The translations under genes and the position numbers were made by a program. DNA of 64,000 nucleotides from an uncultured bacterium (GTDB lineage: Bacteria > Krumholzibacteriota > Krumholzibacteriia > LZORAL124-64-63): assembly GCA_963732385.1 (NCBI GenBank), contig CAVSZB010000007.1, forward strand, positions 1,408,001 to 1,472,000. The letters run 5' to 3'. Position 1 is the first letter of the stretch; each line of letters opens with the position of its first letter. Shown one piece after another: positions 7,126 through 51,380 of the stretch. The notes beneath the pieces were generated by a model, which was not told the DNA's origin, made no database searches, and was given only the letters and a program-made list of their open reading frames with translations.

Positions 7126-7147
7126 CGGCGTCGTCCTCCGGTACGGG

Positions 7148-8478
7148 TCAGTCGGCACAGCCGGCGCCCATCTTGGCGCGCAGCACATCGGACTTGAGCA
7201 GGAACGCGCCGCGTGCGGCCACGACCTGGCCCGGCGCCAGCCCGCCGGCGATCTCCACCCACCCGCCCTCCGCGCGGCCGGTCGTGACCGGCCGGCGCAG
7301 GAAGTACCCCGGCCGCGCCGCCACGAAGACGAAGGAGCGCCCCGCGTCCTCGAGCACCGCCTCGGCCGGCACGGCGAGGGCACGCGCGGCGCCCGGCAGC
7401 CGCAGGCGGACATGCGCGAACATCCCCGGACGCAGCAGCCCCTCCGCGTTGTCCACGACGATGCGCGCCCGCGCGGTGCGGGTGCTCGCGTCGAGCGTGC
7501 CGCCAATGGTGTCGAGCCGCCCCTTCAGCACCCGGTCCGGCGCAAAGTGCAACGTCACCTCCGCCGGCACCTCCCCCGCCGCGCGCGCCGCCAGCAGCGG
7601 CCCGATCTCGTGCTCGCGCAGGTTCGCCAGCACCCACATCCTGGAGACGTCCGCCACCAGCAGCAGCGGCTGGTCCGCCGTCACCTGCCGGCCCGGTCCG
7701 AGCTCGCGCTCGAGCACGGTCCCGCCCAGCGGGGCCGTCACGGTCAGGAGCGGCGCGCCGTCGGGGTCGCGCGCGAGCGCCTCCAGCCCCGCCGCGTCCA
7801 GGCCGTGCGCCCGCATCCGCTCCGCCGCGGCCATCTCGGCGGCCGCTGCGCGCGCCCGCTCCGCCTCCGCCTCCAGCAGGTCCTTCCGCGGGCAGATCCC
7901 CTGCGCGTGGAGCTCGGCCTCGCGCGCCGCCGCCGCCCGCGCCAGCGCGTGCCCCGCCCGCGCCTGCAGCCAGACCGCCCGCTCCTGTGCCCAGGCGGGG
8001 CTGGCGATCCGCAGCAGCGGCTGTCCCCGCTGCACGACGCTCCCCACGTCCACCAGCACCTCGCGCACCGTGCCGTCCGCGCGCGACGTCACCCGCACGG
8101 CCCGCTCCGCGTCGAGCTGCGCCTCGCCGTCCAGCTCGAGCACCGCCGGCAACCCCCGCTCCGTCACCGTGACGGTCTGCAGCAGTCCGTCCGGCCCCGC
8201 GAGCGCCGAGTCCACCTTCACCAGGCCCAGTTCGTAGCGGCACTCGTCGCAGCTGTGCTGGGCGATGTCGTGCTCGCAGACGGCCGCGAACAACTCCGCC
8301 TCGCCGCGGTCCAGGTCGGATGTCTCCACCGCGGCCCCGGCGCCCGGCTCCGGCGCGCGCGCCGTCCCGTCCGCCGCGTTCCCGCGCGCGCCGCAGCCGC
8401 CCCCCCCGCCGCCGCCGCGGCGAGCCACAGCGCCGCCGCCGCCAGGCGGCAATATCCGTGCTTGATGGCGATCGTCAT
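7148..8478 (-). CDS. czcB: CzcB-type RND periplasmic adaptor (lipoprotein); apparent 1-nt frameshift in a G8 run at 8400-8407
   Basis: MFP motifs VDVGSVVQRGQPL, TAPLGGTVLER, LDASTRTARARI, LLRPGMFA. The signal peptide MTIAIKHGYCRLAAAALWLAAAAAG begins at the ATG at 8478, which overlaps the czcC stop, and is out of frame with the downstream GGCG lipobox-like segment. Confidence 0.85.
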
Positions 8479-9737
8479 GGTGTCTCTCCCCCGGGCGCCG
8501 CCAGCGGCGTCCCCAGCAGTGATTCCAGTTCCAGACGCGCCGCGTGCAACGCCGCCAACGCCTCGAGCTGCCGCAGCCGCGCCGCCGCCAGCGTGCGGCG
8601 CGCATCGAGGGCATCGAGCAGTCCGAACTTGCCCCGCCGGTACCCCTCGTCCAGCGCCGCCCGCACCCGCGCCGCCTCCGGCACCACCGTCTCGCGCAGC
8701 ACCCGCTCCGCCGCGATCGCCGCATCCAGGTCGTCCCATGCCGCCAGCCGCGCCGCGCGCAGCCGGTCGCCAAGCGCCCGCAGCTCGTGCCGCGCCTGCG
8801 CCTCCCGCGCCGCCGCCTCCGCTACCGCCCCACCCCCACGGTCGAACAGCGGCAGCGGCAGCGCGACCGAAGCCACGAACGCCCGCTCCCCGCTCGCCGC
8901 GAACCGCCGCACCCCTCCCGCCGCCGTCGGATCGGGCCACCGCCCCGCCCGCGCCAGCCGCGCCAACGCCGCCTGCCGCGCCACCACCGCCTCCTGCCGC
9001 GCCAGCTCCGGATTCGCCGCGGTCCAGGCCGCCACTTCCGCGCGCGTCGGCGCGGCAATCCCCGTCACCAACTCCCCCGCCGCCCGCGTCGAGTCTCCCT
9101 CCGCCCCGCCCCACAACTCCGCCATCGCCGTACCAGCCCGACGCGTCCCGGCCACCGCCGCGTCCCGGTCGATCGCCGCCAGCGCCCGCTCCCCCCGCGC
9201 CCGCGACAACTCCACCGGCGACACCTCCCCCGCCCGCACGAGCGCCCCTACCGCCGCCGTCAACGAGTCAGCCACCGCCACCTCGCCATTGAGCAGCTCC
9301 ATCCGCCGCTGCGCCACCAGTTGCGCCACGAATCGCCGCTCGACCTCGCCGAGCAGATCGCGCCGCGCCGCCGCAAGGCCGGCCGCCGCCGCCTCCCGCC
9401 CCCGTCTTCCCGCCTCCGCCGCCGCCCCGCGCCGCGCGAGAAAGCCGAGGTTCTGCGCCAGCGACCAGGTCACTTCCGCCTCCCCCCACTGCGCCAGATC
9501 CCCCCCGAAGTTCTCCACCTCGAAGGACAGCTCAGGATTCGGCACCGCCCCCGCCTGCCGCGCCGCCCCCGCCGCCGCCGCCGAATCCGCCACCGCCGCC
9601 GCCAGCACCGGACTGTTGGCCAGCACGCGCGCCCGGCAGTCATGAAGGGTGAGTTGAACCTCGGCCCCGGCCACGGGCCCGGCAGTCAGCAGCCACCCCA
9701 GCACCACCCCGACCCGCCAACAGACATCCGCACGCAT
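8475..9737 (-). CDS. czcC: CzcC/TolC-family outer membrane channel
   Basis: Signal peptide, LTLHDC...NSP, QAGAVPNPELSFEVENFGG, LPLPLFDRG, GYRRGKFGLLDALDARR. Confidence 0.88.
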   Translation of the reverse strand: MRADVCWRVGVVLGWLLTAGPVAGAEVQLTLHDCRARVLANSPVLAAAVADSAAAAGAARQAGAVPNPELSFEVENFGGDLAQWGEAEVTWSLAQNLGFLARRGAAAEAGRRGREAAAAGLAAARRDLLGEVERRFVAQLVAQRRMELLNGEVAVADSLTAAVGALVRAGEVSPVELSRARGERALAAIDRDAAVAGTRRAGTAMAELWGGAEGDSTRAAGELVTGIAAPTRAEVAAWTAANPELARQEAVVARQAALARLARAGRWPDPTAAGGVRRFAASGERAFVASVALPLPLFDRGGGAVAEAAAREAQARHELRALGDRLRAARLAAWDDLDAAIAAERVLRETVVPEAARVRAALDEGYRRGKFGLLDALDARRTLAAARLRQLEALAALHAARLELESLLGTPLAAPGGETP

Positions 9738-9819
9738 CGCTGCCTCTTTTCGCGCACGAAGACATGACGCACCCGCGCGCCGCGCGCGGACGACCCTGTT
9801 CACGATGAGGTGCGGAAAA

Positions 9820-10239
9820 TCAGATACGCAGCACGCAGGAGCGCGCCGACAGGAAGAGGTCCGGCCCACTGCCGTCCCCCGCCCACCCCGGCACGTCCAC
9901 CACAGCAGAAGCAAACGGCGCCCCGACCACCGACGCCACCCCAGGCAGGACCCGCGCCCCGCCCCCCATCAACACCGCACTGAGCGAAACCGGCGAATCA
10001 CTGCATCCCTCGGCCGCCCCGACGAGACAAGCGTCACAACCGCCGCCACCCGGCGCATCCTCGCCCGCCGCCGCAGCCGGCGAACACCCCCGCCCCGCCA
10101 ACTCGACCGCCAGATGCCCTCCCGGCGCATGGCACAGCACGACCGGCATCGCCCCGGCCCCCAGCACGGCCAGAGCCGCCGCGAGCAAAAGCCCGCCGCC
10201 CCTCCGCCGCTGCCGCCGCTGTCCGTCCCTGAACGCCAT
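9820..10239 (-). CDS. small Cys/His-rich exported protein heading the czc operon (putative metal-binding)
   Basis: AGGAGG RBS, hydrophobic N-terminus, VLCHAPGGHLAVE, CDAC, CSD, and a hydrophobic C-terminus SCVLRI. Confidence 0.6.
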   Translation of the reverse strand: MAFRDGQRRQRRRGGGLLLAAALAVLGAGAMPVVLCHAPGGHLAVELAGRGCSPAAAAGEDAPGGGGCDACLVGAAEGCSDSPVSLSAVLMGGGARVLPGVASVVGAPFASAVVDVPGWAGDGSGPDLFLSARSCVLRI

Positions 10240-10481: not shown

Positions 10482-10979
10482 TCAGCGGGCCGGCAGATCG
10501 AGCAACTTCTTGCGGGTATAGGGGATGAGCCCGCCGGCGTCGATGATCGCCTGGCGCGCCGGCGGCAGGGGCACGGTGGCGAACTCCCTGCCGCTGGTCC
10601 TGTTCAGGACCCTGCCTGGAACGAGCTTAATGTCGTCCCCCTCGTTCGCCTCGATGGTCGGGCAGATGATCAGGTTCAGGCCGAGGTTGATGGCGTTCTG
10701 CAGGAAGATGCGCGCGATGCTCCGGGCGACGATGATGAGTTCGTGGCCCCGGATGGCGCTCACCGCCTGCTCGCGGCTCGAGCCGCAGCCGAAGTTCTCG
10801 TCGGCGACGACGACGCTGCCCGCCGGAATCGCCCCGGCCTTGAGCCGGCCGTTGAACTCCGTGCGATCGTTGAAGCAGAACTGCGGCGTCTCGGTCGGCA
10901 GGACCGTGGCCATGAACCGGCCGGGGTAGATGTCATCGGTGCTGATGTCCTTGCCGAGCTTCAGTACGACCTGGCCCAT
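10482..10979 (-). CDS. LeuD/HacB-type (homo)aconitase-family small subunit
   Basis: DISTDDIYPGRF, ENFGCGSSREQA, ARIFLQNAINLGL, IIDAGGLIPY. Confidence 0.9.
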   Translation of the reverse strand: MGQVVLKLGKDISTDDIYPGRFMATVLPTETPQFCFNDRTEFNGRLKAGAIPAGSVVVADENFGCGSSREQAVSAIRGHELIIVARSIARIFLQNAINLGLNLIICPTIEANEGDDIKLVPGRVLNRTSGREFATVPLPPARQAIIDAGGLIPYTRKKLLDLPAR

Positions 10980-10980
10980 G

Positions 10981-12273
10981 TTAACGTCCTCCTGCGCGCG
11001 GATCGGTGATGACGCCGGTGATGGCGCTGGCCGCGGCGACGGCGGCGCTGCACAGGTAGACCTCGGATTTCGGGTTGCCCATGCGACCCTTGAAGTTGCG
11101 GTTGGTGGTGGCGAACGCCACCTCCTCGTCCCCGAGCGCCCCCTGATGGATGCCCAGACACGGCCCGCAGCCCGAGTTCATCACCACGGCGCCGGCCTTC
11201 ATGAACTCCTGCAGGTAGCCGGCCTCGAGGGCCTGGGCGTAGATCCGCCCGGAGGCCGGAAAGACCAGCATGCGCGTGCCCTGCGCGACCTTCCTGCCCT
11301 TGAGGATCCCGGCGGCGATTTCCAGATCGTCCAGGCGGCCGTTCGTGCAGCTGCCGATCACGATCTGCTGGATCGGCTTGCCGGCGACCTCGTCGACCGG
11401 CTTGACGTTGTCGACCATGTGCGGACAGGCGATCTGCGGCGCGAGCCGCGACACGTCGATCTCGACGACCTTCTCGTAGACAGCATCGGCATCCGGCAGG
11501 ACCCGCTCGATGGGCCCGGTGACGCCGGCCTCCTGGCGCAGGTAGCGCTCGGTCTCGTCGTCGGCGGGCACGATGCCGCTCGTGGCGCCGGCCTCGACGC
11601 TCATGTTGCAGACGACGAGGCGCCCGCTCGTGGACATCGCTCCCGATCGTGTCGCCGTGGAACTCGAGCACGCGGAAGTTCGCGCCCTGCGCCGTGAGCC
11701 GGCCGATCAGGTGCAGGATCAGGTCCTTCGGCCCGACGTGTTCCGGGAACTTGCCGGTGACGATGACCTTGATGGTCGGCGGCACCTCGATGTTGAGCGC
11801 GACGCCGAGCGTCCAGACCGAGGCCATCTCGGTGGCGCCGATGCCGAAGGAGAAGCGCCCAGCGCTCCGTGGCTGGTCGTGTGGCTGTCGGTGCCGACGA
11901 CCACGAAACCGGGCCGGACGTAGCCGTACTCCGGCAGGATCTGGTGGCAGATGCCGCCGCGGTCGCCGCGGATGTCGTGGAATTTGGCGATTCCGTGCTG
12001 CGCCACGAAGCCGCGGATGAGCTTGTGGTTGGTGGCGGTCTTGGGCCCCTCGGCCGGCACACGGTGATCGAAGATGATGGCGATGCGGGAGGGATCCCAG
12101 GGTTTGGGCTCGCGACCCGTACCCTGATAGATCTCCTTGAACTGGTTGATGACCAGGGCCGCGTTCTCGTGCGACATGGCGAGATCGACCTGCGGCTCCG
12201 TGATGTCAAGGGCCTTGACGACCTTCACGCCCGCCGCTTTGGCCAGGATCTTTTCGACGACTGTCATTCCCAT
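10981..12273 (-). CDS. LeuC/HacA-type (homo)aconitase-family large subunit, interrupted by two single-base frameshifts (about 11855 and 11643)
   Basis: Three frames join into MGMTVVEKILA...DHRVP...GICHQ...GTDSHTTSHGALGA[FSFGIGATE]MASVW...KDLILHLIG...CNMSVEAGA...IGSCTNGR...GCGPCLG...TNRNFKGRMG. Confidence 0.88.
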
Positions 12274-12299
12274 CGTAGCTCCTCATCACGGCCGGGGTT

Positions 12300-13507
12300 T
12301 CAGATGACTGCCTTCTGCTTGAGTTCGGCGAGCTGAGCCTCGGCGAAGCCCAGGCGGCCCAGGATCTCGGCGTTGTGCTGTCCGAGCGTCGGCGGCGGGG
12401 TGGTGACGGCGCCCGACGCGCCGTCGAACAGGGCGGTGAGGCCGAAGACCTCGATCTCGCCCAGACCTGGCACGTCCACCTTCTGCAGGACCCCTCGGTG
12501 CTCGATCTGAGGCTGGCGCAGCGCCTGCTTCAAGCTCAGGATCTCGCCGCTCGGCACGTCGCGCGCGTTCAGGGCCTCGACCCAGTGCAGTGTCGGCTTC
12601 CGGGTGAGACGCGCTTCGAGGAGCGGCGTCAGGGCCTTGCGGTTCTTCTTGCGGGTGTCGCGCTCCTGGAAGCGCGGATCGACCTTCAGCTCCGGGAGCT
12701 CGAGGACATCGCAGACCGCCTCCCACTGCTCCTGCTTGTTGGCGGCGATGTTGATGTGGCCGTCGAGCGTGCTGAAGGTGCCGCTCGGCGCCGCGGTGAA
12801 GTTGTCGTTGCCCATGACGGGCGGCTCGTGTCCGCCGATCAGGAGGTTCGCGACCACCCAGCCCATCAGCGGCATGATCGAGTCGAGGAGCGCGACATCG
12901 ATGCACTGGCCCTGCGCCGGTCCGCTCGCGGTGGAAGAGGGCGGCCATGACCGCGAACGCCGCGTTCAGCCCGCCCACGGTGTCGCAGACGGGAAAGCCG
13001 GCGCGCAGCGGCGTCAGCCGTTCGTCGCCGTTGATCGCCATCTCGCCGGAGAGCCCCTGGATGATCTGGTCGTAGGCCGGCTTGTCGGCGTCCGGGCCGG
13101 TCTGGCCGAAGCCGGAGATCCCGCAGTAGACGAGCCGGGGATTGATCTCGCGCAGGACGTCGTAGCCGAGCCCGAGCCGCTCCATGACGCCGGGCCGGAA
13201 GTTCTCGATCACGCACGTCGGCGTCCCGGACGAGACGTTTGAAGATCTCCTTGCCCTCCGGGCTCTTGGTGTTGAGGGTCACCGACTTCTTGTTGCAGTT
13301 CTGCGCCAGGAAGCTCGTCCCCATCAGCCGCTTGTTGTACTCGGGAACGATCCCGAGCTTGCGGGCCAGATCACCGTCCTTGGGGTTCTCGATCTTGATG
13401 ACCTCCGCGCCCAGCAGCGCCAGGTGGAGCGAGGCGAACGGACCGGAGAGGACGTTGGTGAGGTCAAGGACCTTGATGCCGTCGAGAATGCGCGGTTTGT
13501 CTGTCAT
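12300..13507 (-). CDS. family III (CaiB/BaiF) CoA-transferase, interrupted by two single-base frameshifts (about 13214 and 12914)
   Basis: LDGIKVLDLTNVLSGPF, LGAEVIKIE, NKKSVTLN, [V]IENFRPGVM, YDQIIQGLSG (catalytic Asp region), [GQCIDVALLDS], PPTLGQHNAEIL. Confidence 0.88.
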
Positions 13508-13522
13508 CGCAGCACCTGTCTG

Positions 13523-14419
13523 TTAGAAGAGCGGTCCGGTCTTGTGGACCCGGCCCGGCATCTCCCGGCCGAAATGTGTGGCGACCTCGCGGGCCACGGC
13601 GATGATCGCGTCGAGATCGATCTCCTCGCGCAGGCCGCTGCGGCGGAGGGCGTGGACCAGGTCCTCGGTGGCCACGTTGCCGGCCGCTACCTTCGTGAAC
13701 GGGCAGCCGCCCAGGCCGGCGACCGAGGTTTCGAAGCTCACGACCCCCGACTCCAGCGCGGCATAGATGTTCGCCATGCCGAGTCCGTAGGTGTCGTGGA
13801 AGTGGCACGTGCAGCGGATCTCCGGCGCGAGTTCCCGGATCCTGCCGAACAGCCGCCTCACCTGCCCGGGATACGCGTGGCCGGCGGTGTCGGCGAGGCT
13901 GATGTTCGTGAGACCCGCCTCGAGATAAGCGGCGACGATGCCGAGGACCCGCTCCTCGGCCACGCGGCCCTCGAAGCCGCAGCCGAACGCGCTCTGCACC
14001 GAGACCTGGATCTTTTTGCCGGCCGCGACCGCCGCCCTGGCCGTGGCGATGATGCGGCGCTGAGCCTCCTCCGACCCCATGCCGGTGTTCTTCAGGCTGT
14101 GCGTCTCGGAGGCCGAGACCCCGAGGCAGAACATCTCCACGCCGCACGCGAGGCCGCGCTCGAGCCCCTTCTCGTTGAGCACGAGGCCCGAGAGAATCGT
14201 TCGGCCTCTCGGCTCAGCGACGAGAGTGCGGAAGAGCGCGTCCGTGTCGGCCATCTGCGGCACCTTCTCGGGGTGCACGAACGAACCGACCTGGACGATG
14301 TCCAGGCCCGCGGCGATCAGCGACCGGATCCACCCGAGCTTCTGCTCGGTCGCGACCACCTGCTTCTCGACCTGCAGGCCGTCCCGGGGACCGACTTCGT
14401 GGATGATGATCTCGGACAT
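13523..14419 (-). CDS. HMG-CoA-lyase-family (DRE-TIM) acyl-CoA lyase
   Basis: HEVGPRDGLQ, GSFVHPEKVPQMAD, SASETHS, LADTAG, HFHDTYGLG, GLGGCPF, GNVATEDL. The frame is intact. Confidence 0.92.
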   Translation of the reverse strand: MSEIIIHEVGPRDGLQVEKQVVATEQKLGWIRSLIAAGLDIVQVGSFVHPEKVPQMADTDALFRTLVAEPRGRTILSGLVLNEKGLERGLACGVEMFCLGVSASETHSLKNTGMGSEEAQRRIIATARAAVAAGKKIQVSVQSAFGCGFEGRVAEERVLGIVAAYLEAGLTNISLADTAGHAYPGQVRRLFGRIRELAPEIRCTCHFHDTYGLGMANIYAALESGVVSFETSVAGLGGCPFTKVAAGNVATEDLVHALRRSGLREEIDLDAIIAVAREVATHFGREMPGRVHKTGPLF

Positions 14420-14423
14420 TGCG

Positions 14424-15541
14424 CTACAGCTTCCTGGCGATCGCCTCGCCCATCTCCAGGGTCGTGGCGCTGCCGCCCATGTCGTACGTGCGCACGCTGC
14501 CTTCGGCGATGACCTGGGCGGTGGCCTGCTCGAGCCGGGCGCCCTTTTCGGTCTCGCCCAGCCATTCCAGCATCATCTTGCCGGCGAGGATGGTGGCGAT
14601 GGGATTCACCTTGTACTGGCCGGCGTACTTGGGCGCGCTGCCGTGGCTCGGCTCGAACACGGCGAGCTTCTCGCCGATGTTGCCGGAGCAGCCGAAGCCG
14701 AGGCCGCCCACCATCTGCGCCGCGAGGTCGCTGACGATGTCGCCGAACATGTTGGTGGCGACGAGCACGCCGTAGCTCCGGGGATTCTTGAGAAGCCACA
14801 TGCAGATGGCGTCGATGTTCGCGTCGTCCATCTGGATCCCCGGGTAGTCTTTGGCGATCCGCTTTCCGGTCTCCAGGAACAGGCCCTCGGTCGCGCGCAC
14901 CACGTTGGCCTTGTGGATCACGGTGACCTTCGGGTAGTTGAACTTCCTGGCGTACTCGAAGGCGGCACGGATGATCCGCTCGCAACCCTTGTTCGTGTTG
15001 ATCTTGCAGCTGATGGCGTAGTCGTGGCCCGGCAGGCTGGCGAAATGAGCGAACGGCTTGCTGAGCCGGCTCAGGACGCTGACGAGTTCGTCCGGGACCG
15101 GGCTGAACTCGACGCCGGCATAGAGATCCTCCGTGTTCTCGCGGAAGACCACGAGGTCGATGCCCTCCTTGTAGTTGAGAGGGTTGCCAGGATAGGCCTT
15201 GCAGGGCCGCAGGCAGGTGTAGAGGTCGAACAGCTGCCGCATGCGGACGATGGGACTGCGGTAGACCAGCCCCTTGCCCTGCAGCTCCGGGATGAGCTCG
15301 CGCTCCGCGTCCTTCACCGGCTTGGAGGTGATGGCGCCGAACAGAGCCGCGTCACTTGACCTCAGAAGCTCGACCGTGCGCTCCGGGAAGGCGTCGCCCT
15401 CCGGCACCAGAACTCCCAGCCGATGTCGCCGTGCGTGTAGGTGGCGTCGAACTTGAGGGCGTCGAGACAGATCCTGGTCGCCTCCATGACTTCCACGCCC
15501 ACGCCGTCACCCGGCAGCCATGCGATCTTGTACCTGCTCAT
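14424..15541 (-). CDS. beta-decarboxylating dehydrogenase, homoisocitrate-dehydrogenase-like; frameshift at about 15401
   Basis: MSRYKIAWLPGDGVGVEV (ATG at 15541, GGAGG RBS) joins EGDAFP...LFGAITS...YRSPIVRMRQ...RENTEDLY...HKANV...NMFGDIVSD...FEPSHGSAP. Confidence 0.88.
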
Positions 15542-15732
15542 GGATCCTCCATGGGGCCGTGCCTGGGCGACCTGATCCGCCGCACCATGCATTTTTAGAA
15601 TGATCGAGGAGAAGCGACAATTCATCTCCCCGAGCCGATCACGGAACTTAATCCTTGTATTCAAGTGAATTATGATGCACTGTCGGCCATGATCACAAAC
15701 GATGATTTTTCAGGAACCAGTTCCAAAAAGTC

Positions 15733-16629
15733 ATGAACACTAAGCGTGTCCTCCCATCACTCACCGCGCTCCAGTTCTTCGAAGCCGCGGTGCGCCACAT
15801 GAGCTTCACCCGGGCGGCGCGAGAGCTGAACGTCACGCAGAGCGCCGTAAGCCGCCAGATCCGACAACTCGAGGAGCACGTCGGCAGGCCGCTGTTCCGC
15901 CGCCTCAAGCAGCGGCTGGTCCTGACCGAGCCCGGCGAGGCCTACTTCATAGCCGTGCGCGAACTGCTCGACCGCGCCGAGGCGGCCACCCTCCAGCTGA
16001 TGGCCTACGGCAGCGGAGGCGGCCTGCTGACCGTCGCTTTGCTGCCCACCTTCGGATCGCGGTGGCTCGTCCCCCGGCTCGGCGACTTCACGACGCAGCA
16101 TCCCGACATCCAGCTCAACCTGGTGACGCAGGTAAAGCCGTTCGACTTCGCCGGCAGCGAAATCGACGTGGCCATCCACTTCGGCAGCGAGGTCTGGCCG
16201 GGCGCGATCTGCCACCGGCTGATGGGCGAAGTGGTCGTTCCGGTGGCGGCGCCCTCCCTGCTCGGACGCTCCCGGCTGACCCGCCCCGAGGACGTGGGCC
16301 GCTACACGCTGCTACAGCACGTGACGCGCTCACAGGCCTGGCAGGAGTGGCTTCACGCCTGCGGCGTGGAAGAGCTCGACGGCCACGTGGGGCCGCGCTT
16401 CGAGCAGTTCCACATGGTCATCCAGGCCGCCATCGCCGGCCTCGGGCTCGCGGTCCTGCCCCGGTTCCTGATCCAGGACGAGCTCACGAGCGGCAGGCTC
16501 GTCGTCGCGATCGACCGACCGGTGAAAAGCGAGCATGCGTACTACCTCGTCCATCCGGAGCGCAAGGCGGACCTCCAGCGCGTCACGGTGTTTCGTGACT
16601 GGTTGCTGCAGCAGTGCGCGGGAGGGTAG
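15733..16629 (+). CDS. LysR-family regulator (GcvA/GcdR-like), divergent from the dehydrogenase operon
   Basis: LPSLTALQFFEAAVRHMSFTRAARELNVTQSAVSRQI HTH; PTFGSRWLVPRL, HRLMGE and GPRFEQF are typical of the GcdR/GcvA subgroup. Confidence 0.92.
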   Translation: MNTKRVLPSLTALQFFEAAVRHMSFTRAARELNVTQSAVSRQIRQLEEHVGRPLFRRLKQRLVLTEPGEAYFIAVRELLDRAEAATLQLMAYGSGGGLLTVALLPTFGSRWLVPRLGDFTTQHPDIQLNLVTQVKPFDFAGSEIDVAIHFGSEVWPGAICHRLMGEVVVPVAAPSLLGRSRLTRPEDVGRYTLLQHVTRSQAWQEWLHACGVEELDGHVGPRFEQFHMVIQAAIAGLGLAVLPRFLIQDELTSGRLVVAIDRPVKSEHAYYLVHPERKADLQRVTVFRDWLLQQCAGG

Positions 16630-16693
16630 GATAGATGAGCACGCGGGCGTCGGGACCGAGGCCTGAGCCAACCGTTTGCTTCCGGGGGATGGC

Positions 16694-17359
16694 ATGACCG
16701 AGACTTCGTTGGCGATCCTCGTCTGGACGGCGATTTCGATCGGGGTCACGCATACGGTGATCGGGCCTGACCACTACGTTCCGTTCATCGCGCTGGCGCG
16801 AGCGCGGGGCTGGACGGGCGGGCGGACGCTCGCGGTGACGGCGCTGTGCGGGGTGGGGCATGTGCTGTCATCGGTGGTGATCGGGGGGCTTGGCATCGGC
16901 CTGGGAACGGCGCTTGGCCGCCTCGAAGCGATCGAGAGCGCGCGGGGCGAATGGGCCAGTTGGGGGCTGATCCTGTTCGGGGTCGGGTATGGGGTCTGGG
17001 GGTTGTGGCGGGCGCGGCGGGGGCATGGGCATCGGCATCTGCCGGGAGGCGGGCATCTGCACGACCACGAAGCACGGTCGGTCACGTTCTGGACGCTGTT
17101 CATCGTGTTCGTGCTGGGGCCTTGCGAGCCGCTCATTCCGCTGCTGATGTTTCCGGCGGCGAAGCATGACTGGGCGGGGGTCTGGGTGGTGACGGGGGCG
17201 TTCGGGGTCGCCACGATCGGCGCCATGTGCGCGCTGGTGCTGGCGGGGAGACGGGGGCTGGCGCGGGTGCGGCTGGCGGGGCTGGAGCGCTATGCGCATG
17301 CGCTCGCGGGCGGCATCATCGCGATGTCGGGGGCGGCGATCCGGCTGTTCGGGATCTGA
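16694..17359 (+). CDS. His-rich nickel/cobalt permease-like membrane protein (NiCoT/UreH/RcnA-like)
   Basis: HTVIGPDHYVPF, GHVLSS, a His-rich loop GHGHRH...HLHDHE, GPCEPLIP, about 6 hydrophobic segments; lies beside a NiFe hydrogenase operon. Confidence 0.75.
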   Translation: MTETSLAILVWTAISIGVTHTVIGPDHYVPFIALARARGWTGGRTLAVTALCGVGHVLSSVVIGGLGIGLGTALGRLEAIESARGEWASWGLILFGVGYGVWGLWRARRGHGHRHLPGGGHLHDHEARSVTFWTLFIVFVLGPCEPLIPLLMFPAAKHDWAGVWVVTGAFGVATIGAMCALVLAGRRGLARVRLAGLERYAHALAGGIIAMSGAAIRLFGI

Positions 17360-17372
17360 GGGACAGCGCAGG

Positions 17373-17861
17373 TCAGACGTCGGCAGCCAGCAGCTCGCGC
17401 ACTGCGACCAGGATCTCGTCGCGCAGAGCGGGGTAGCGCGCCTCGAGCTCCTCGGTCATCCGCTCGCTGAAGGTCAGGTTGTCGACGATCTCCACGGCGA
17501 AAATATGGATCTCCGCATCGGGCGGCAGGCGCAGGCCGAGACGACGGCCGAGCTCCAGCGCGGTGGCGAAGTTCGTATCGTGGACGTTGGACAGGTTCAT
17601 CGTCGGGCGCAGGGCGGCGGCGGTGAACCGGTGCCAGGCGCCGGGCAGCGCATCGCGGGTCTTGACCGAGTCGAGGCAGACGAGGCGGTCGTGGCCCTGC
17701 AGGACGTCGAGCAGGTTGAGACCGCCGACGGAGCATTCCTCCAGCCAGGCCAGGGCGGGGCGGTCGCCGAGCGCGAGGCGCAGGTCGCGCGCCAGGCGCA
17801 CGCCGACGGCGTCGTCGGTCAGGATCGGGTTGCCGAGGCCCACGACCAGGGTCGTCATCAT
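17373..17861 (-). CDS. NiFe hydrogenase maturation protease
   Basis: VVGLGNPILTDDAVG, conserved D in LVCLDSV, and H in NVHD. Confidence 0.9.
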   Translation of the reverse strand: MMTTLVVGLGNPILTDDAVGVRLARDLRLALGDRPALAWLEECSVGGLNLLDVLQGHDRLVCLDSVKTRDALPGAWHRFTAAALRPTMNLSNVHDTNFATALELGRRLGLRLPPDAEIHIFAVEIVDNLTFSERMTEELEARYPALRDEILVAVRELLAADV

Positions 17862-17937
17862 CGGGCGTCTCCGCGGGGATTTCGGGGCGCCGGCCGAGGT
17901 CCGATCGGGACGACGCCTCCCGCTGCCGGGCGATCGC

Positions 17938-19404
17938 TCAGCAGTTCCGCTTGATCGTCTGCACCAGTTCCCCGCCGCGGATCAGTCGCACCTCGAGCGG
18001 CATCTGGCCCGGGAGGCTGTGCGTGGCGCAGGAGTAGCACGGATCGAAGGCGCGGAAGCCCATCTCGATCATGTTCAGGATGCCCTCATTGGCCGGCTGG
18101 CCAGGCTTGATCAGCGCTTTGGCGATCTTGCGGGTCACCATGTGGATGGGGGCGTTGTTGTTCGTGGTGCCGACGATCAGGTTGGCGCTCGTGCAGATGC
18201 CGTTCTCGTCGCAGGTGTAGTGGTGCGTCAGGGTGCCGCGCATCGCCTCGACGATGCCAACCCCCTCCCCCGTGATCTTCTGCGGCACGACGCGGTAGCG
18301 GGCGCCGGTGATCTCGGGATCGGCGCAGTGGCGCTGCAGCATCTCCGCGTTCTGCACCATCTCCACGAGGCGGGCCCAGTGATTCGCCAGCAGCGCCCGG
18401 CAGGGGTGGCCGCCGAGCGTGGTGAACATCTCCTCGAACGCGATCTGCGCCTGTGGCGTGGCCATCCGGTCGGCCACGTTGAGGCGGGCGAGCGGCGTGG
18501 CGCAGTAGAGGCTGGAGTCCTCCCCCTCCACGAATCCCTTCCAGCCGCGCTGCTTCAGGTAGGGGAACTTGAGGTAGCTCCACGGCTCCACGTGCTCGGC
18601 CACGTATTCGTGGTACTCCTCGGGACGGTAGCGGCAGATCTCATGGCCGTGGAAGTCGACCACGCGCACCTGACCATGGTAGAAGTTGGGGGCGTTGTTC
18701 TCGTCGACCAGCCCCATGTTGTGCACGTCGAGCGTGTACGGCCCGTTGACGATCAGGTCCACGTAGCCGGGGTTGCCGAGCACCACGTCGCGGAACAGCT
18801 GCAGCGAGAACTGCGTGAAGTCGTACAGCTCGGCCACGAGGGGCCGGATCCGCTCCAGCTCCTCCGGCGTGCACCCCTTCGACACGCCGCCCGGCAGGCA
18901 CCACACCAGGTGCGTGCTGCGCCCGCCCAGGATCGTCTGGATCTCCTGCGCCATGGCGCGCGCCCTGATGACGGCGCCGCCGATCTCCAGGCCGACCTTC
19001 GCCACCACGCCGAGGATGTTGCGCGTGGCGGGATCGCTGTCGGGACCGCAGACGAAGTCGGGGGCGGCCAGCGCGTAGAAGTGGGCGATGTGGCTGTGGA
19101 TGTAATGCGCGTGGTAGTACATGTCGCGCAGCTTGTGCGCCAGCGGGGGGCACTCGCCGCCGAAGCAGCCGTCAACCGCCTTGGCGCTCGCCATGTGGTG
19201 ACTGGCGGGGCAGACGCCGCAGATCCGCGTCACGATGCGCGGCAGCTCCTCGATCGGCCGCCCGACGACGAAGCGTTCGAACCCGCGCAGTTCGGGGATC
19301 TGGAAATAGGTGTCGCGCACCGAGCCGTCGTCGTTGAGGAAGATCGAGATCTTGCCGTGCCCCTCGAGGCGCGTGATCGGATCGATGTGGATCGTCCGCG
19401 TCAT
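17938..19404 (-). CDS. mvhA: group 3c NiFe hydrogenase large subunit
   Basis: IDPITRLEGHGKI, L1 motif RICGVC, L2 motif RAFDPCYSCATH followed by a cleavable C-terminal extension. The ATG at 19404 overlaps the mvhG stop. Confidence 0.93.
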   Translation of the reverse strand: MTRTIHIDPITRLEGHGKISIFLNDDGSVRDTYFQIPELRGFERFVVGRPIEELPRIVTRICGVCPASHHMASAKAVDGCFGGECPPLAHKLRDMYYHAHYIHSHIAHFYALAAPDFVCGPDSDPATRNILGVVAKVGLEIGGAVIRARAMAQEIQTILGGRSTHLVWCLPGGVSKGCTPEELERIRPLVAELYDFTQFSLQLFRDVVLGNPGYVDLIVNGPYTLDVHNMGLVDENNAPNFYHGQVRVVDFHGHEICRYRPEEYHEYVAEHVEPWSYLKFPYLKQRGWKGFVEGEDSSLYCATPLARLNVADRMATPQAQIAFEEMFTTLGGHPCRALLANHWARLVEMVQNAEMLQRHCADPEITGARYRVVPQKITGEGVGIVEAMRGTLTHHYTCDENGICTSANLIVGTTNNNAPIHMVTRKIAKALIKPGQPANEGILNMIEMGFRAFDPCYSCATHSLPGQMPLEVRLIRGGELVQTIKRNC

Positions 19405-20363
19405 GTAAGACTCCTCTGCAACAGCGATCCCGGCAGACCGAAGCGGTAGGCGTAGCCCATGATGTCGGGCACGTCGGCGAGGATCCGGTCGATTTCGGCA
19501 GGGTCCCTGCTGTCGATGATCGAGGCGATCGCGCTGATCAGCTTGGCCCCCTGGTCGACGACGTTGGGCGCCGGGCCGTAGCAGCCGCGGCACGGCATGT
19601 TGCTGTTCGGGCAGCGCACGCCGCAGCCGGAACGCGTGGCCGAGCCGGCGCAGACGATCCCCTGTTCGAGCAGGCAGCGCTCCGGATCCTGGATGATCTG
19701 CCACGGACGATGGAACTTCGCCACCTTCTTCTCTTCCTTCTTCCGCTGGCAGTCGTCGCAGACATTGCGCTCGGACGCGCCAACCACCGACCCCCGCGGC
19801 GGCAGCTGGCCGGTCACGACCGCGGTCAGCACCTCGCGCACGCGATCGGGGTGCGGCGGGCAGCCCGGCACGGTGTAATCGACCTCCACCACGTCGCCCA
19901 GCCGGTAGACGCGGCGGTACATGGTCGGGATCTCCAGCCCGCCGCATTCCACCCGGCTCTCCGGCAGCGGCACCGTGCGGTTGCCCGGCTCGATGGAGGG
20001 GTTGTTCAGGTAGGCGCGCTCGAAGATCTCCTCGCGCGTGAACTGGTTGGCCAGGCCCGGAATGCCGCCGAGGTGCGCGCACGAGCCGAACGCCACCAGC
20101 AGCTTCGCCTTGCGCCGCAGCAACTTCGCCACGTGCTCGTTCTCGCTGTTGCGCACGGCGCCGTTGAAGATCGCCAGATCGAGCTCGCCGTCGGCCATGG
20201 CCTCGAGATCGTGGTACTTGCCGTCGACGGCGATCGGCCAGAAGCGGATGTCGGCCGCCGCGGCCACGTCGAGGATGAACTCGTTGGTGTCGAGCACCGC
20301 GACGTCGCAACCGCCGCACGCGGCGCCCCAGTAGAGCGCGATCTGCAGCTTACGATCGGGCAT
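19401..20363 (-). CDS. mvhG: group 3c NiFe hydrogenase small subunit
   Basis: CGGC, FGSCAHLGGIPGLAN, PGCPP, VCDDC, CLLEQGIVCAG, CRGCYG. Confidence 0.92.
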   Translation of the reverse strand: MPDRKLQIALYWGAACGGCDVAVLDTNEFILDVAAAADIRFWPIAVDGKYHDLEAMADGELDLAIFNGAVRNSENEHVAKLLRRKAKLLVAFGSCAHLGGIPGLANQFTREEIFERAYLNNPSIEPGNRTVPLPESRVECGGLEIPTMYRRVYRLGDVVEVDYTVPGCPPHPDRVREVLTAVVTGQLPPRGSVVGASERNVCDDCQRKKEEKKVAKFHRPWQIIQDPERCLLEQGIVCAGSATRSGCGVRCPNSNMPCRGCYGPAPNVVDQGAKLISAIASIIDSRDPAEIDRILADVPDIMGYAYRFGLPGSLLQRSLT

Positions 20364-20366
20364 CTC

Positions 20367-22522: not shown

Positions 22523-22535
22523 GCTTCGCCTCCCG

Positions 22536-23678: not shown

Positions 23679-23695
23679 GCCGCGTCTCCTTCGGT

Positions 23696-25522: not shown

Positions 25523-25566
25523 AGGACCTCGCTTTCGCTGTCGAAGAGATTGTGAGCGTAAGCCAA

Positions 25567-25584
25567 CTGTGACGCGATTCACAA
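25567..25584. promoter_or_regulatory. Rex/CRP-type palindromic operator upstream of the hdr-mvh operon
   Basis: Minus strand reads TTGTGAATCGCGTCACAG: a perfect TGTGA-N6-TCACA core with 2 mismatches to the Rex consensus TTGTGAANNNNTTCACAA, about 45 nt upstream of the hdrA start. Confidence 0.65.
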
Positions 25585-49106: not shown

Positions 49107-51380
49107 TTAGCCGCGGACCTGACGGATCCGATTGAGGGCCGAACCGGCCCGGAACCAGGCGATCTGCTCGACTGTGAGGGTGTGTCGGACCGGGCAGGCG
49201 TCCCGCGTCCCGTCGGCGTGATGCAACACCGCCGTCAGCGGTTCGCCCGGAGCGAGTCCGGCCAGGCCGGTGATCGCGATCCGGTCGTCCTCGCGCACCT
49301 TTTCGTAGTCGGCCGGATCAGCGAAGGTAAGCGGCAGGACCCCCTGCTTCTTGAGGTTGGTCTCATGGATCCGCGCGAAACTCCGGGTGATCACCGCGGC
49401 GGCGCCGAGGTGCCGCGGCGACATGGCCGCATGCTCGCGGCTCGAGCCTTCACCGTAGTTTTCGTCACCCACGACCACCCAGCGCAGTCCGGCCGCCTTG
49501 TAGGCGCGCGCCACCTGCGGCACCGGCAGCCCGGTCTCCCCCGTGAGCAGATTGCGGGTCCGGCCGGACTCGCCGGTGAAGGCGTTCGCGGCGCCCAGGA
49601 ACATGTTGTCGCTGATCCGGTCGAGATGTCCGCGGTACTTCAGCCACGGCCCGGCCGCGGAGATGTGGTCGGTGGTGCACTTGCCCTTCGCCTTGAGCAG
49701 CAGCGGCAGGTCGATGAGGTCGCCGCCATCCCAGGCCGCAAACGGATCCAGCAGCGCCAGCCGGTCGCTGTCGGGTTTCACGCTCACCGCCACCCCCGCG
49801 CCGTCGGCCGGGGGCGCCACGTAGCCGCCCATCCCCGGCGCGAAGCCGCGGCGCGGCAGCTCGTCGGCCTGGGCCGGGATGTCGAGTTTCACCGCTTCGC
49901 CGCGCGCGTTCTCCAGCGTGTCGGTGAGCGGGTTGAAGTCCAGCCGTCCCGCCAGCGCACAGGCCACCACCACTTCCGGGCTGCCGATGAAGGCGAACGT
50001 GTCCGCGCTGCCGTCGTTGCGGCGCGGAAAATTGCGGTTGAAAGAGGTGAGGATGCTGTTGCGCTCCCCTTTCTTCACGTCGTCGCGCTGCCACTGCCCG
50101 ATGCACGGACCGCAGGCGTTCGCCAGCACGATCGCCCCCACCGCCTCGAGATCGGCGAGCTGACCGTCCCGCCTGATGGTCTCGTAGATCAGGTCGGAGC
50201 CGGGCGTGACCATGAGCGGGGCGCGCATGCGCAGACCCTTCGCCAGGGCCTGCCGCGCCACGTCCGCGGCCCGCCCGATATCCTCGTACGACGAGTTGGT
50301 GCAGGACCCGATCAGCGCGAAGCGCAGTTCGACCGGCCACCCTTCGCGCCGCACGTCCTCGCCCAACCGGCTCACCGGCCGCGCCAGGTCGGGGGTGTGC
50401 GGCCCGACGACGTGCGGCTCGAGCGTCGTCAGGTCGATCTCGACCACGCGGTCGTAGAACTTCGCCGGGTCCCGCTCCACCTCGGGGTCGGCGACGAGCA
50501 GGTCGCGGCTGGCCTCCGCCAGGTCGGCCAGCGCGGCGCGGCCCGTGGCGCGGAGGTAGGCGCCCATGCGCTCGTCGTACGGGAAGAGGCTGGTCGTGGC
50601 GCCGTGCTCGGCCCCCATGTTGGTCACGGTCGCCTTGCCGGTACAGGAGATCGCGCGCGTGCCGGGCCCGAAGTACTCCACGATGGCGTTGGTGCCCCCC
50701 TTGGTGGTCAGGATCTCGCAGACCTTCAGGATGACATCCTTGGGCGACGTCCAGCCGTTCAACTCCCCGGTCAGCTTCACGCCGATCATTTTCGGGTGCT
50801 TGACCTCCCACGGCATGCCGACCATCACGTCCACCGCGTCGGCCCCGCCCACGCCGCAGGCCACCATGCCGAGCCCGCCGGCGTTGGGCGTGTGGCTGTC
50901 GGTGCCGATGATCAGGCCGCCGGGGAAGGCGTAGTTCTCGAGCACGACCTGATGGATGATGCCGGAACCGGGCTTCCAGAAGCCCATGCCGTACCGGCCC
51001 GCGGCGGTGCGCAGGAAATCGTACACCTCGCGGTTCTCGTCCTCCGCGACCTGCTGATCGGCGGCCGCCCCCGCGTGGGCGCGGATCAGGTGGTCGCAAT
51101 GGATGGTGGTCGGCACCGCGGTCCGCGGGATCCGCGCCGACATGAACTGCAGGATCGCCATCTGCGCGGTGGCGTCCTGCATGGCGACGCGGTCGGGCCG
51201 CAAAGCGAGCGTGGCCTCGCCGCGCGCCAGCGGCTGCCCCGCCGGGTCGTCGAGGTGTCCGAGCAGCACCTTCTCCCCGAGCGTCAGCGGCCGGCCGAGC
51301 CGCCCGCGCACGATCTCCAGCCGCGAGCGCATCTGCGCGTAAACGTCCTGCACCATCTCGGGGGTGGTCTCGATCCGCAT
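49107..51380 (-). CDS. aconitate hydratase (single-chain, mitochondrial-like type)
   Basis: [61 protein letters not shown]. Confidence 0.95.

What the first reader, a model, noticed from the sequence alone, without database searches (positions are those of the whole stretch)
10482..16629. Candidate new pathway: homocitrate chemistry with a CoA-lyase plus CoA-transferase in place of a synthase, under a GcdR-like regulator
Seen: one tightly packed operon (dehydrogenase, HMG-CoA-lyase-family enzyme, family III CoA-transferase, hydratase large and small subunits), divergent from a LysR. No isopropylmalate, homocitrate or citramalate synthase and no lysW/lysX genes lie nearby. Known: the dehydrogenase motif LFGAITS...YRSPIVRMR and the small-subunit motif TDDIYPGRF resemble homoisocitrate dehydrogenase and homoaconitase more than LeuB/LeuD. 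The LysR resembles GcdR, which controls glutarate/lysine catabolism. A lyase plus CoA-transferase pair typically cleaves a tertiary hydroxy acid, as in HMG, citramalate or citrate cleavage. A separate TCA aconitase sits at 49107. Inference: the operon may run the homocitrate route backwards (2-oxoadipate + CO2 -> homoisocitrate -> homocitrate -> homocitryl-CoA -> 2-oxoglutarate + acetyl-CoA), a carboxylating lysine/tryptophan catabolic route that bypasses glutaryl-CoA. Alternatively it is a CoA-conserving replacement for homocitrate or citramalate synthase.
Basis: partly seen in the sequence, partly recalled or inferred. Interest (0 to 1): 0.85.

Follow-up and report, generated by a model that had tools for sequence, protein, structure and literature searches.

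The report
Reverse homocitrate route for lysine breakdown
Five linked genes, kept in the same order in bacteria of many phyla, likely break down the lysine product 2-oxoadipate by adding CO2 and then splitting the product into 2-oxoglutarate and acetyl-CoA, an oxygen-free route that no enzyme test has yet shown.

Summary
The operon is real. Its five frameshifts are most likely assembly errors, and all five genes lie in order in 48 of 80 related loci.

The dehydrogenase is closest to homoisocitrate dehydrogenases and has an NADP-type cofactor loop. This 96%-complete genome has no LeuA/CimA/homocitrate synthase, LysX or LysA, but has a lysine-to-aminoadipate catabolic operon. One relative joins the five genes to saccharopine genes. 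The same dehydrogenase clade also pairs with an unrelated cleavage module (PrpD, fungal-type homoaconitase, CitDE/CitF). The regulator's best-scoring plasmid relative faces hglS, the known 2-oxoadipate oxygenase, and outscores gcdH-linked regulators.

Best reading (0.62): 2-oxoadipate + CO2 + NADPH to homocitrate, then homocitryl-CoA, then 2-oxoglutarate + acetyl-CoA.

Against: both hydratase subunits score slightly closer to isopropylmalate isomerase and lack the homoaconitase arginine; the lyase lacks the synthase arginine; GcdH coexists in 36 of 51 genomes; direction is untested. Nine paper searches aimed at the route and its enzymes found no description. The scan noted this operon before on other DNA, with split readings.

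The parts
14424..15541 (-). Beta-decarboxylating dehydrogenase, homoisocitrate-dehydrogenase-like, NADP-type cofactor loop; one frameshift near 15402
   Evidence: PF00180; best NCBIfam model AksF2 HICDH, below cut-off; top PDB hits are HICDHs; Lys-Tyr cofactor loop in 62 of 64 loci; frameshift absent from relatives' contigs
13523..14419 (-). HMG-CoA-lyase-family (DRE-TIM) C-C lyase of a distinct subfamily; predicted homocitryl-CoA lyase; intact
   Evidence: Passes PRK05692 (277 vs 246); PDB best hits HMG-CoA lyases; metal and catalytic motifs conserved, Gln for the usual strand-2 Glu and Gln-x-Ser on strand 5
12300..13507 (-). Family III (CaiB/BaiF) CoA-transferase; two frameshifts near 13212 and 12913
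   Evidence: PF02515; intact relative L001 is closest to human succinate-HMG CoA-transferase in PDB (7e-83) and to NF052585 below cut-off (294 vs 750); catalytic Asp motif in 76 of 76 loci
10981..12273 (-). LeuC/HacA-type [4Fe-4S] hydratase large subunit (archaeal-type family); two frameshifts near 11855 and 11639
   Evidence: Intact relatives pass TIGR01343, TIGR02086, PRK00402 but not leuC, LEU2 or HacA_Meth; three Cys ligands and His/Asp/Arg motifs conserved; PDB: 4nqy 4.5e-117, 4kp2 2.8e-109
10482..10979 (-). LeuD/HacB-type small subunit; intact; specificity loop lacks the HacB arginine
   Evidence: PF00694; TIGR02087 106 vs 109; PDB 3vba > 2pkp; catalytic Ser/Arg motif in 59 of 59 loci
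15542..15735 (.). Divergent control region with two conserved stretches (about 15586-15603 and 15700-15735) that look like LysR boxes
   Evidence: Alignment of 10 operon intergenic regions and 3 hglS-lysR regions; binding is inferred, no chance control run
15733..16629 (+). LysR regulator, GcvA subfamily; present at 19 of 80 related loci; best-scoring plasmid relative is divergent from hglS
   Evidence: Passes PRK11139 (327 vs 288)
49107..51380 (-). TCA aconitase (mitochondrial type); not part of the operon, possible helper for the homoaconitate-homocitrate half step
   Evidence: Passes TIGR01340; helper role inferred from PMC3556520 (abstract and passages read)

Best explanation
The operon likely runs the first half of the alpha-aminoadipate pathway backwards: the dehydrogenase would carboxylate lysine-derived 2-oxoadipate with NADPH and CO2, the hydratase would isomerise homoisocitrate to homocitrate, the CoA-transferase would activate it, and the lyase would split homocitryl-CoA into 2-oxoglutarate and acetyl-CoA. 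Shown: gene content, order, family membership, motifs, co-occurrence. Inferred: every substrate, the CoA donor (probably succinyl-CoA), the direction, and whether the TCA aconitase helps with one half of the isomerisation. The likely benefit is an O2-independent way to turn ketogenic lysine into a C5 skeleton, regenerating the 2-oxoglutarate that lysine catabolism consumes and spending reducing power.
For: (1) Dehydrogenase: top three PDB hits of an intact relative are Thermus HICDH (5e-73 to 7e-71); the four best hits of the N-terminal 127 residues of the genome's paralogue are all HICDHs (3e-12 to 3e-11; IPMDH and IDH from 7.5e-8). The substrate loop matches S. pombe HICDH (Ser-Pro-Ile-Val) and has Ile where IDHs have Asn115 (PMC3521221 passages); it is unchanged in 58 of 59 loci. 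(2) NADP-type Lys-Tyr loop like the genome's own NADP-IDH, unlike Thermus HICDH. (3) No biosynthetic frame: no LeuA/HCS/CimA-family gene in 34 of 51 operon genomes, LysX over cut-off in 0 of 73, thioester reductase over cut-off in 0 of 5. (4) Lysine catabolism: own genome has LKR, saccharopine dehydrogenase and P6C dehydrogenase (NF050084, 766 vs 730) in one run with glutamate dehydrogenase. Lat or P6C dehydrogenase in 44 of 51 operon genomes. In L216 the five genes run straight into LKR, SDH and an AOR-like gene. Lat lies within 3.5 kb in L018, L023, L026. (5) Module swap: the same dehydrogenase clade is operonic with PrpD, fungal-type homoaconitase and CitDE/CitF in L106 and L255, and with CitDE/CitF in L126; L255 nests among the operon enzymes. 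All 20 lyase-negative family members have the dehydrogenase and CitF, 17 have TIGR00139 homoaconitase, none a synthase. (6) Regulator: best E-value plasmid hit and two more top-30 hits are divergent from HglS (NF049974 passed). (7) Separate NADP-IDH, aconitase and citrate synthase exist, and 6 of 8 inspected synthase-family genes sit beside an ordinary LeuB-type gene.
Against: Both hydratase subunits score a little higher against the M. jannaschii isopropylmalate/citramalate isomerase than against its homoaconitase, and the small subunit lacks the HacB Arg. The lyase has Gln where homocitrate synthase has Arg on strand 5. No gene passes a homocitrate-specific cut-off. GcdH is in 36 of 51 operon genomes and in this one with OGDH E1, so the route is not needed to fill a gap. 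P6C dehydrogenase is background in this class: 20 of 20 lyase-negative family members and 5 of 5 other class members, two of which lack the dehydrogenase clade. Lat is absent from this genome and its five closest operon-bearing relatives. 7 of 51 genomes show neither Lat nor P6C dehydrogenase. One operon genome (G129) has a true homocitrate synthase. Shorter DUF1338 proteins occur in 11 of 51. 3 of 8 inspected LysR hits face other genes and 2 had no annotation of their neighbours beyond my own test of one. This genome has dapB but no lysA, so a lysine-making role is not excluded. The same architecture serves maleate/citramalate-type chemistry in Peribacillus.
Confidence: 0.62

Rival explanations
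1. The enzymes handle another or several 2-oxoacids (2-oxobutyrate via citramalate, or branched-chain 2-oxoacids via alkylmalates), shortening or lengthening them while keeping the thioester bond.
For: Hydratase subunits are closest to isopropylmalate/citramalate isomerase. Lyase strand 5 has the Ser that IPMS shares with HCS and lacks the HCS Arg. A reversible (R)-citramalyl-CoA lyase with a succinyl-CoA:(R)-citramalate transferase is described (PMC8307300 passages). A Peribacillus plasmid has CaiB, LeuC, LeuD, HMGL, an Asp/Glu-racemase-family gene and tartrate dehydrogenase in one run.
Against: The dehydrogenase lacks the LeuB loop and the NAD-type motif seen in the ordinary LeuB genes of these genomes and in the Peribacillus enzyme. 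The Peribacillus proteins are only 33-44% identical. The lyase lacks the Tyr of HMG-CoA lyases on strand 5. Links to saccharopine genes, Lat, TIGR00139 homoaconitase and hglS-type regulators are unexplained.
Confidence: 0.15
2. Same homocitrate chemistry in the biosynthetic direction (or freely reversible): lyase plus CoA-transferase replace homocitrate synthase, and lysine is made through saccharopine with an aldehyde:ferredoxin oxidoreductase reducing aminoadipate.
For: This genome and its family lack lysA over cut-off (0 of 22) yet have LKR/SDH. L216 joins the operon to LKR, SDH and an AOR-like gene. This genome has an AOR-family gene about 3 kb from CitDE/CitF. Oxidative decarboxylation is the direction of all characterised HICDHs (recalled).
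Against: P6C dehydrogenase, regarded as one-way (recalled), is in the same operon as LKR/SDH here. 21 of 51 operon genomes have lysA. No LysX, no Lys2-type reductase. AOR absent from 2 of 5 tested. The family also lacks LeuA, so auxotrophy is ordinary. Regulator relatives control catabolic genes.
Confidence: 0.13
3. A dedicated reverse-TCA segment for glutamate fermentation: 2-oxoglutarate + CO2 to isocitrate, citrate, citryl-CoA, then oxaloacetate + acetyl-CoA.
For: NADP-type loop and a Ser at the IDH Ser113 position; NAD-IDHs follow closely in the PDB ranking (7e-70 against 5e-73); the genome has an OadA/OadB-like decarboxylase and CitDE/CitF.
Against: Ile replaces the isocitrate-binding Asn115. 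The genome already has NADP-IDH and aconitase. The alternative module uses a homoaconitase that passes TIGR00139.
Confidence: 0.07

Closest known systems
First half of the alpha-aminoadipate pathway (fungal Lys20/21, aconitase + Lys4, Lys12; Thermus HCS, HacAB, HICDH; methanogen AksADEF)
   Same: HICDH-like dehydrogenase and an aconitase-family hydratase; same predicted intermediates.
   Different: No synthase; a CoA-transferase and a lyase instead; NADP-type dehydrogenase; no LysX or Lys2; linked to catabolic genes; predicted to run in reverse.
(R)-citramalyl-CoA lyase (EC 4.1.3.46) with succinyl-CoA:(R)-citramalate CoA-transferase (EC 2.8.3.20)
   Same: A lyase plus CoA-transferase pair that cleaves an (R)-2-alkylmalate reversibly (PMC8307300 passages); family assignments HMGL and CaiB are recalled.
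   Different: Here joined to an HICDH-like enzyme; the Chloroflexus sequences could not be fetched, so no direct comparison was made.
HMG-CoA lyase with succinate-HMG/glutarate CoA-transferase (SUGCT, CaiB/GcdG)
   Same: Best PDB matches of the lyase and the transferase; metal site and Cys loop conserved.
   Different: About 35-42% identity; strand-2 Glu is Gln, strand-5 Arg-x-Tyr is Gln-x-Ser; transferase fails NF052585; no methylcrotonyl-CoA carboxylase context.
HglS route of Pseudomonas putida and plants (2-oxoadipate to 2-hydroxyglutarate; bioRxiv 10.1101/2020.01.30.927905)
   Same: Predicted to link 2-oxoadipate to a C5 acid; related regulators sit beside hglS.
   Different: HglS consumes O2 and loses CO2; this route would need no O2, fix CO2 and yield acetyl-CoA.
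Reverse-TCA citrate cleavage (IDH, aconitase, citrate or citryl-CoA lyase)
   Same: Same reaction logic: reductive carboxylation, isomerisation, CoA activation, retro-aldol.
   Different: One carbon longer; LeuC/D-type hydratase and DRE-TIM lyase.

Membership tests
Homoisocitrate dehydrogenase | Closest characterised relatives are HICDHs | tested here: met
   margin over NAD-IDH is small for the full length, and with the window's truncated ORF three IDH-labelled chains ranked first
Homoisocitrate dehydrogenase | Substrate loop like fungal HICDH, without IDH Asn115 or the LeuB loop | tested here: met
Homoisocitrate dehydrogenase | Passes a curated HICDH model | tested here: not met
   AksF2 334 vs 540; AksF 290 vs 500
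Homoisocitrate dehydrogenase | NAD-type cofactor loop as in Thermus HICDH | tested here: not met
   Lys-Tyr in 62 of 64 loci against Asp-Ile in 3asj
Homoisocitrate dehydrogenase | Activity on homoisocitrate | not testable with these tools
   Needs assay
Homoaconitase HacAB | Large subunit in the HacA/archaeal LeuC family with intact cluster and catalytic motifs | tested here: met
   TIGR01343 500 vs 386; motifs. The family also holds isopropylmalate isomerases
Homoaconitase HacAB | Arg in the small-subunit specificity loop, as in 2pkp | tested here: not met
   Ala in the listed variants of 59 loci; role of this Arg is recalled
Canonical LeuBCD | Pass TIGR00169/00170/00171 and occur with LeuA | tested here: not met
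   leuB 206 vs 353, leuC 229 vs 560, leuD 39 vs 116; no LeuA in this genome
HMG-CoA lyase family | Passes PRK05692; His-x-His, Arg-Asp and Cys loop | tested here: met
HMG-CoA lyase (HMG-specific) | Strand-2 Glu and strand-5 Arg-x-Tyr as in liu-type enzymes | tested here: not met
   Gln, and Gln-x-Ser in 80 of 80 loci for strand 5
Homocitrate synthase | Passes TIGR02146/TIGR02660; C-terminal HCS_D2 domain; strand-5 Arg-x-Ser | tested here: not met
   73 and 80 bits; no PF22617; Ser kept, Arg absent
(R)-citramalyl-CoA lyase / Sct | Orthology with the Chloroflexus enzymes | not tested
   No model or sequence was available in the libraries used
Family III CoA-transferase | PF02515 and catalytic Asp | tested here: met
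GcdR | Closest to regulators divergent from gcdH | tested here: inconclusive
   hglS-linked 288 bits, gcdH-linked 217 and 196, one with no match; P. putida GcdR itself not compared
LysW-type or fungal lysine biosynthesis | LysX or Lys2-type reductase present | tested here: not met
   0 of 73; 0 of 5 over cut-off; LysW not searched

The most novel reading that the evidence does not exclude
A widespread, undescribed CO2-fixing branch of anaerobic lysine catabolism, built on a clade of NADPH-dependent 2-oxoadipate carboxylases and completed by interchangeable, unrelated homocitrate-cleaving modules: HMGL-type lyase with CaiB transferase and LeuCD-type hydratase (here), or CitDE/CitF with PrpD and fungal-type homoaconitase (also in this genome). 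It would make lysine a source of 2-oxoglutarate without oxygen and add two new enzymes, homocitrate CoA-transferase and homocitryl-CoA lyase.
Probability: 0.5. Interest if true: 0.85.

Novelty: new variant of a known kind. Interest (0 to 1): 0.72.

Why it matters
The described fates of 2-oxoadipate are oxidation through glutaryl-CoA and the O2-dependent HglS step. A third, carboxylating route would change how lysine turnover is read in genomes of Acidobacteriota, Gemmatimonadota, Bacteroidota, Elusimicrobiota, Eisenbacteria, Zixibacteria and others, where these genes match leucine-pathway and HMG-CoA lyase models. It would be a heterotrophic CO2-fixing step, supply an NADP-linked HICDH and a thioester-conserving C-C enzyme pair for pathway engineering, and explain bacterial fungal-type homoaconitases that have no synthase. 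It can be tested directly in Geothrix fermentans DSM 14018, which has the full operon, Lat and P6C dehydrogenase.

Tried and rejected
Canonical leucine pathway: rejected (cut-offs failed, no LeuA here, separate leu clusters in LeuA-bearing genomes). Pseudogene reading: rejected. Lat as the upstream enzyme in this genome: not found; the saccharopine route is present instead. GcdH absence as the reason for the operon: rejected. Saccharopine-dehydrogenase family as a marker: uninformative, 71 of 73. A synthase gene beside LKR in G138 proved to be an isopropylmalate synthase. LysR tree: 13 rows with two long branches, suggestive only. Dehydrogenase tree: FastTree, no characterised HICDH among the rows, so it shows only the clade and the module swap. 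RNA-library contigs cover much of the region but do not show transcription; no silent control was laid. Small word shares of the runs are no evidence of habitat. ESM Atlas gave only generic HMGL clusters. Structure prediction was not obtained, so no pocket model. Paper searches (homocitryl-CoA, reverse route, specificity residues) gave no relevant paper; others gave background papers; one gave only unrelated ecology papers.


Full report
OBSERVATION. The minus strand holds five genes with gaps of 1-26 bp, faced by a LysR on the plus strand. Pfam and NCBIfam give an Iso_dh dehydrogenase, an HMGL-like enzyme passing PRK05692, a family III CoA-transferase, aconitase-family large and small subunits, and a GcvA-subfamily LysR passing PRK11139. 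Three genes carry five single-base frameshifts. Contigs of related organisms in four public runs (at most three samples, two studies) differ from the window by one base at each of these places, and the closest relative L001 is intact at 91-97% identity, so these are most likely assembly errors. Where a gene was broken I used intact relatives.

CONSERVATION. A lyase-anchored scan of GTDB genomes confirmed 345 relatives and returned the best 80, at 62-91% identity, titled as Acidobacteriota, Gemmatimonadota, Bacteroidota, Elusimicrobia, Eisenbacteria, Zixibacteria, Myxococcota and others, including cultured Geothrix fermentans DSM 14018. All five genes lie in order with gaps up to 400 bp in 48 of 80 loci, and in 46 of the 60 with room for all five; the LysR is present in 19 of 80. 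Three genomes whose locus has only lyase and transferase carry dehydrogenase, large and small subunit together elsewhere. A dehydrogenase-anchored metagenome scan found the lyase beside it in 42 of 80 loci, many of them short. In an even sample of the own phylum the lyase subfamily is patchy: 6 of 111 genomes.

DEHYDROGENASE. With an intact relative the top PDB hits are Thermus HICDH (5e-73), then NAD-IDHs (7e-70). With the window's truncated ORF three IDH-labelled chains ranked first. The N-terminal 127 residues of the genome's own paralogue (73-74% identical) hit four HICDHs first, then IPMDH and IDH about three orders of magnitude weaker. The substrate loop aligns with S. pombe HICDH (Ser-Pro-Ile-Val) and is unchanged in 58 of 59 loci. 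It has Ile where IDHs have the isocitrate-binding Asn115 (PMC3521221, passages read) and lacks the LeuB loop seen in ordinary leuB genes of these genomes. No HICDH model is passed (AksF2 334 vs 540). The cofactor loop has Lys-Tyr in 62 of 64 loci, like the genome's NADP-IDH; PMC3521221 names this pair as the NADP discriminator. Thermus HICDH has Asp-Ile. NADPH use would suit reductive carboxylation (inference), but NADP-IDHs also work oxidatively.

HYDRATASE. Intact large subunits pass TIGR01343, TIGR02086 and PRK00402 and fail leuC, LEU2 and HacA_Meth; cluster and catalytic motifs are conserved. Both subunits score somewhat higher against M. jannaschii isopropylmalate/citramalate isomerase than against its homoaconitase (4.5e-117 vs 2.8e-109; 6.7e-28 vs 1.5e-23), and the small subunit has Ala at the HacB Arg. 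PMC3556520 (abstract and passages) reports that the methanogen enzyme does both half reactions while fungal and Thermus homoaconitases need an aconitase; the window's aconitase (TIGR01340) could fill that role.

LYASE AND TRANSFERASE. The lyase keeps the metal and Cys-loop motifs but forms its own subfamily: Gln for the strand-2 Glu, and Gln-x-Ser on strand 5 in 80 of 80 loci, where liu-type HMG-CoA lyases have Arg-x-Tyr, IPMS Glu-x-Ser and homocitrate synthase Arg-x-Ser. Loss of the Tyr suggests room for a group larger than methyl; loss of the Arg leaves the distal carboxylate without its usual partner (roles recalled). The transferase is closest to human succinate-HMG CoA-transferase (7e-83) and fails NF052585.

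GENOME CONTEXT. The own genome is 95.8% complete. It has no LeuA/CimA/HCS, no LysX, no lysA though dapB is present, no Lat, no HglS and no isocitrate lyase. It has LKR, saccharopine dehydrogenase, P6C dehydrogenase (passes NF050084), a PPDK_N protein and glutamate dehydrogenase in one run. It also has GcdH, OGDH E1, citrate synthase and NADP-IDH. For cross-genome counts I used this genome plus the genomes of 50 of the 80 loci (51 'operon genomes'; some carry only part of the operon at the locus; completeness is not given for the 50), 20 lyase-negative members of the same family, and from then on two further lyase-positive genomes (73 in all). In the 51: synthase-family domain 17, Lat 29, P6C dehydrogenase 32, either 44, lysA 21, GcdH 36, DUF1338 11, all shorter forms. 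LysX passes in 0 of 73. Of 8 synthase-family loci inspected out of 17, six lie beside a LeuB-type gene, one is a lone IPMS and one is a true homocitrate synthase. Kin are not independent, and P6C dehydrogenase is also in 20 of 20 and 5 of 5 controls, so these counts show that the substrate can be made, not a specific association.

DIRECT LINKS. In L216 the five genes continue without a break into LKR, SDH and an AOR-like gene (the AOR label is from sequence likeness, 87% to a PF01314-positive gene in G152). Lat passing TIGR03251 lies within 3.5 kb in three Holophagae loci; class III aminotransferases follow the small subunit in four others. These are 1 of 80 and 7 of 80 loci.

MODULE SWAP. The dehydrogenase clade is in 73 of 73 genomes. 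All 20 lyase-negative family members have a CitF subgroup, 17 have a fungal-type homoaconitase passing TIGR00139, and none has a synthase. In L106 and L255 the dehydrogenase is operonic with an HD protein, PrpD, this homoaconitase, a CitD-CitE fusion and CitF; L126 has dehydrogenase, CitDE and CitF. The L255 enzyme nests among the HMGL-operon enzymes. This genome carries both sets, the second scattered. Two unrelated CoA-transferase plus lyase pairs on one HICDH-like enzyme, one with a certified homoaconitase, point to homocitrate cleavage.

REGULATOR. Of the 30 listed plasmid hits I opened 7. The best by E-value (S. meliloti, 5e-86) and two Rhizobium hits are divergent from HglS, which passes NF049974; three face other genes and one was unresolved. 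Regulators beside gcdH scored 217 and 196 bits, or gave no match, against 288 for the hglS-linked one. P. putida GcdR was not compared; its preprint (10.1101/557751, passages) describes a glutarate sensor. HglS consumes O2 equimolar with 2-oxoadipate (10.1101/2020.01.30.927905, passages). The GcvA subfamily is broad, so this is a hint.

A NATURAL CONTROL. A Peribacillus plasmid has CaiB, LeuC, LeuD, HMGL, an Asp/Glu-racemase-family gene and a tartrate dehydrogenase passing TIGR02089. This looks like the maleate/citramalate version of the same design. Its proteins are 33-44% identical to ours and its dehydrogenase is NAD-type. It shows that the design is used for cleavage of other acids, and that ours is a separate clade.

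MECHANISM. Lysine goes to aminoadipate semialdehyde (saccharopine route or Lat), aminoadipate and 2-oxoadipate. Predicted next: carboxylation with NADPH to homoisocitrate, isomerisation to (R)-homocitrate, CoA transfer, and cleavage to 2-oxoglutarate and acetyl-CoA. The steps should be near equilibrium (recalled by analogy with reverse TCA), pulled by use of 2-oxoglutarate in the upstream transfers. Lysine C1-C2 would end in the acetyl unit and CO2 in glutamate C1. All of this is inferred.

LITERATURE AND EARLIER NOTES. 'Homocitryl-CoA' occurs in no paper of the library; searches found no description of the route. The library lacks most subscription journals, and I read no supplements. PMC4302243 (passages) and PMC8307300 (passages) gave background only; PMC6667623 was seen as a search listing. 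The scan noted this operon at least eight times on other DNA, four times with a lysine/homocitrate reading and four with citramalate-type or open readings, and noted the CitDEF and an ACL-like variant. I had found the CitDEF swap before those look-ups. These notes are not independent support.

VERDICT. A real, conserved, apparently undescribed pathway module. Reverse homocitrate catabolism 0.62; other 2-oxoacids 0.15; biosynthetic or reversible 0.13; reverse TCA for glutamate 0.07. New variant of a known kind; interest 0.72.

Noticed in passing
G000:C6:74978-78474 (L088), C1:24558-25682 (L086), C5:227860-230639 (L180), C1:136200-136721 (L181): A second, scattered set in the same genome: PrpD with a fungal-type homoaconitase (passes TIGR00139), a second HICDH-like dehydrogenase, a CitD-CitE fusion with CitF, and the HD protein that is operonic with them elsewhere.
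   Followed up: partly
G000:C7:902237-911079 (L100): LKR, saccharopine dehydrogenase, P6C dehydrogenase, a receiver/PPDK_N protein and glutamate dehydrogenase in one run.
   Followed up: yes
L286:5380-13308 (Peribacillus frigoritolerans plasmid NZ_OY970401.1): GntR-linked CaiB, LeuC, LeuD, HMGL, Asp/Glu-racemase-family gene, tartrate dehydrogenase and SLC13 permease: a likely maleate/citraconate catabolic operon in a culturable host.
   Followed up: partly
L253:3-5407: HD protein, the dehydrogenase and two different LeuC/LeuD-like pairs in a row; perhaps one pair per half reaction.
   Followed up: no
L087:6936-9703 (G000:C8): A fused LeuC-LeuD-like protein (607 aa) behind an enoyl-CoA-hydratase-like gene; function unknown.
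   Followed up: no
L180:11779-16000 (G000:C5): An Fe-S/AOR-family fusion with a ThiF-like gene and an NADH-dehydrogenase-like subunit about 3 kb upstream of CitDE/CitF.
   Followed up: no
L295:6429-7553 (G129): A lone Thermus-type homocitrate synthase (passes TIGR02146) in a genome that has the operon and no LysX over cut-off.
   Followed up: partly
L272:289-5859 (Ruegeria plasmid): LysR divergent from aminotransferase, GcdH-like and 2-oxoacid dehydrogenase genes: a candidate aminoadipate-to-glutaryl-CoA operon under a related regulator.
   Followed up: no
L165:4239-7317 and L166:2488-5553: In two Bacteroidota genomes without NF050084, a GucD-like aldehyde dehydrogenase directly precedes Lat and may be a different aminoadipate-semialdehyde dehydrogenase.
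   Followed up: partly
window 17373-25582 (-): A cluster that reads like HdrA/HdrC-, MvhD-, MvhG/A-type hydrogenase and maturation-protease genes 0.7 kb beyond the LysR, with a putative nickel-transport membrane gene at 16676-17359; labels from reading the translations, no family search run.
   Followed up: no
window 4042-9914 (-): Heavy-metal RND efflux-type trio (outer-membrane factor, adaptor, CusA/CzcA-like pump) downstream of the operon; label from reading the translations.
   Followed up: no
L085:721-3366 (G000:C7:1134500-1137200): OadA/OadB-like biotin-dependent sodium-pumping decarboxylase subunits; the only other HMGL-like domain in the genome.
   Followed up: no
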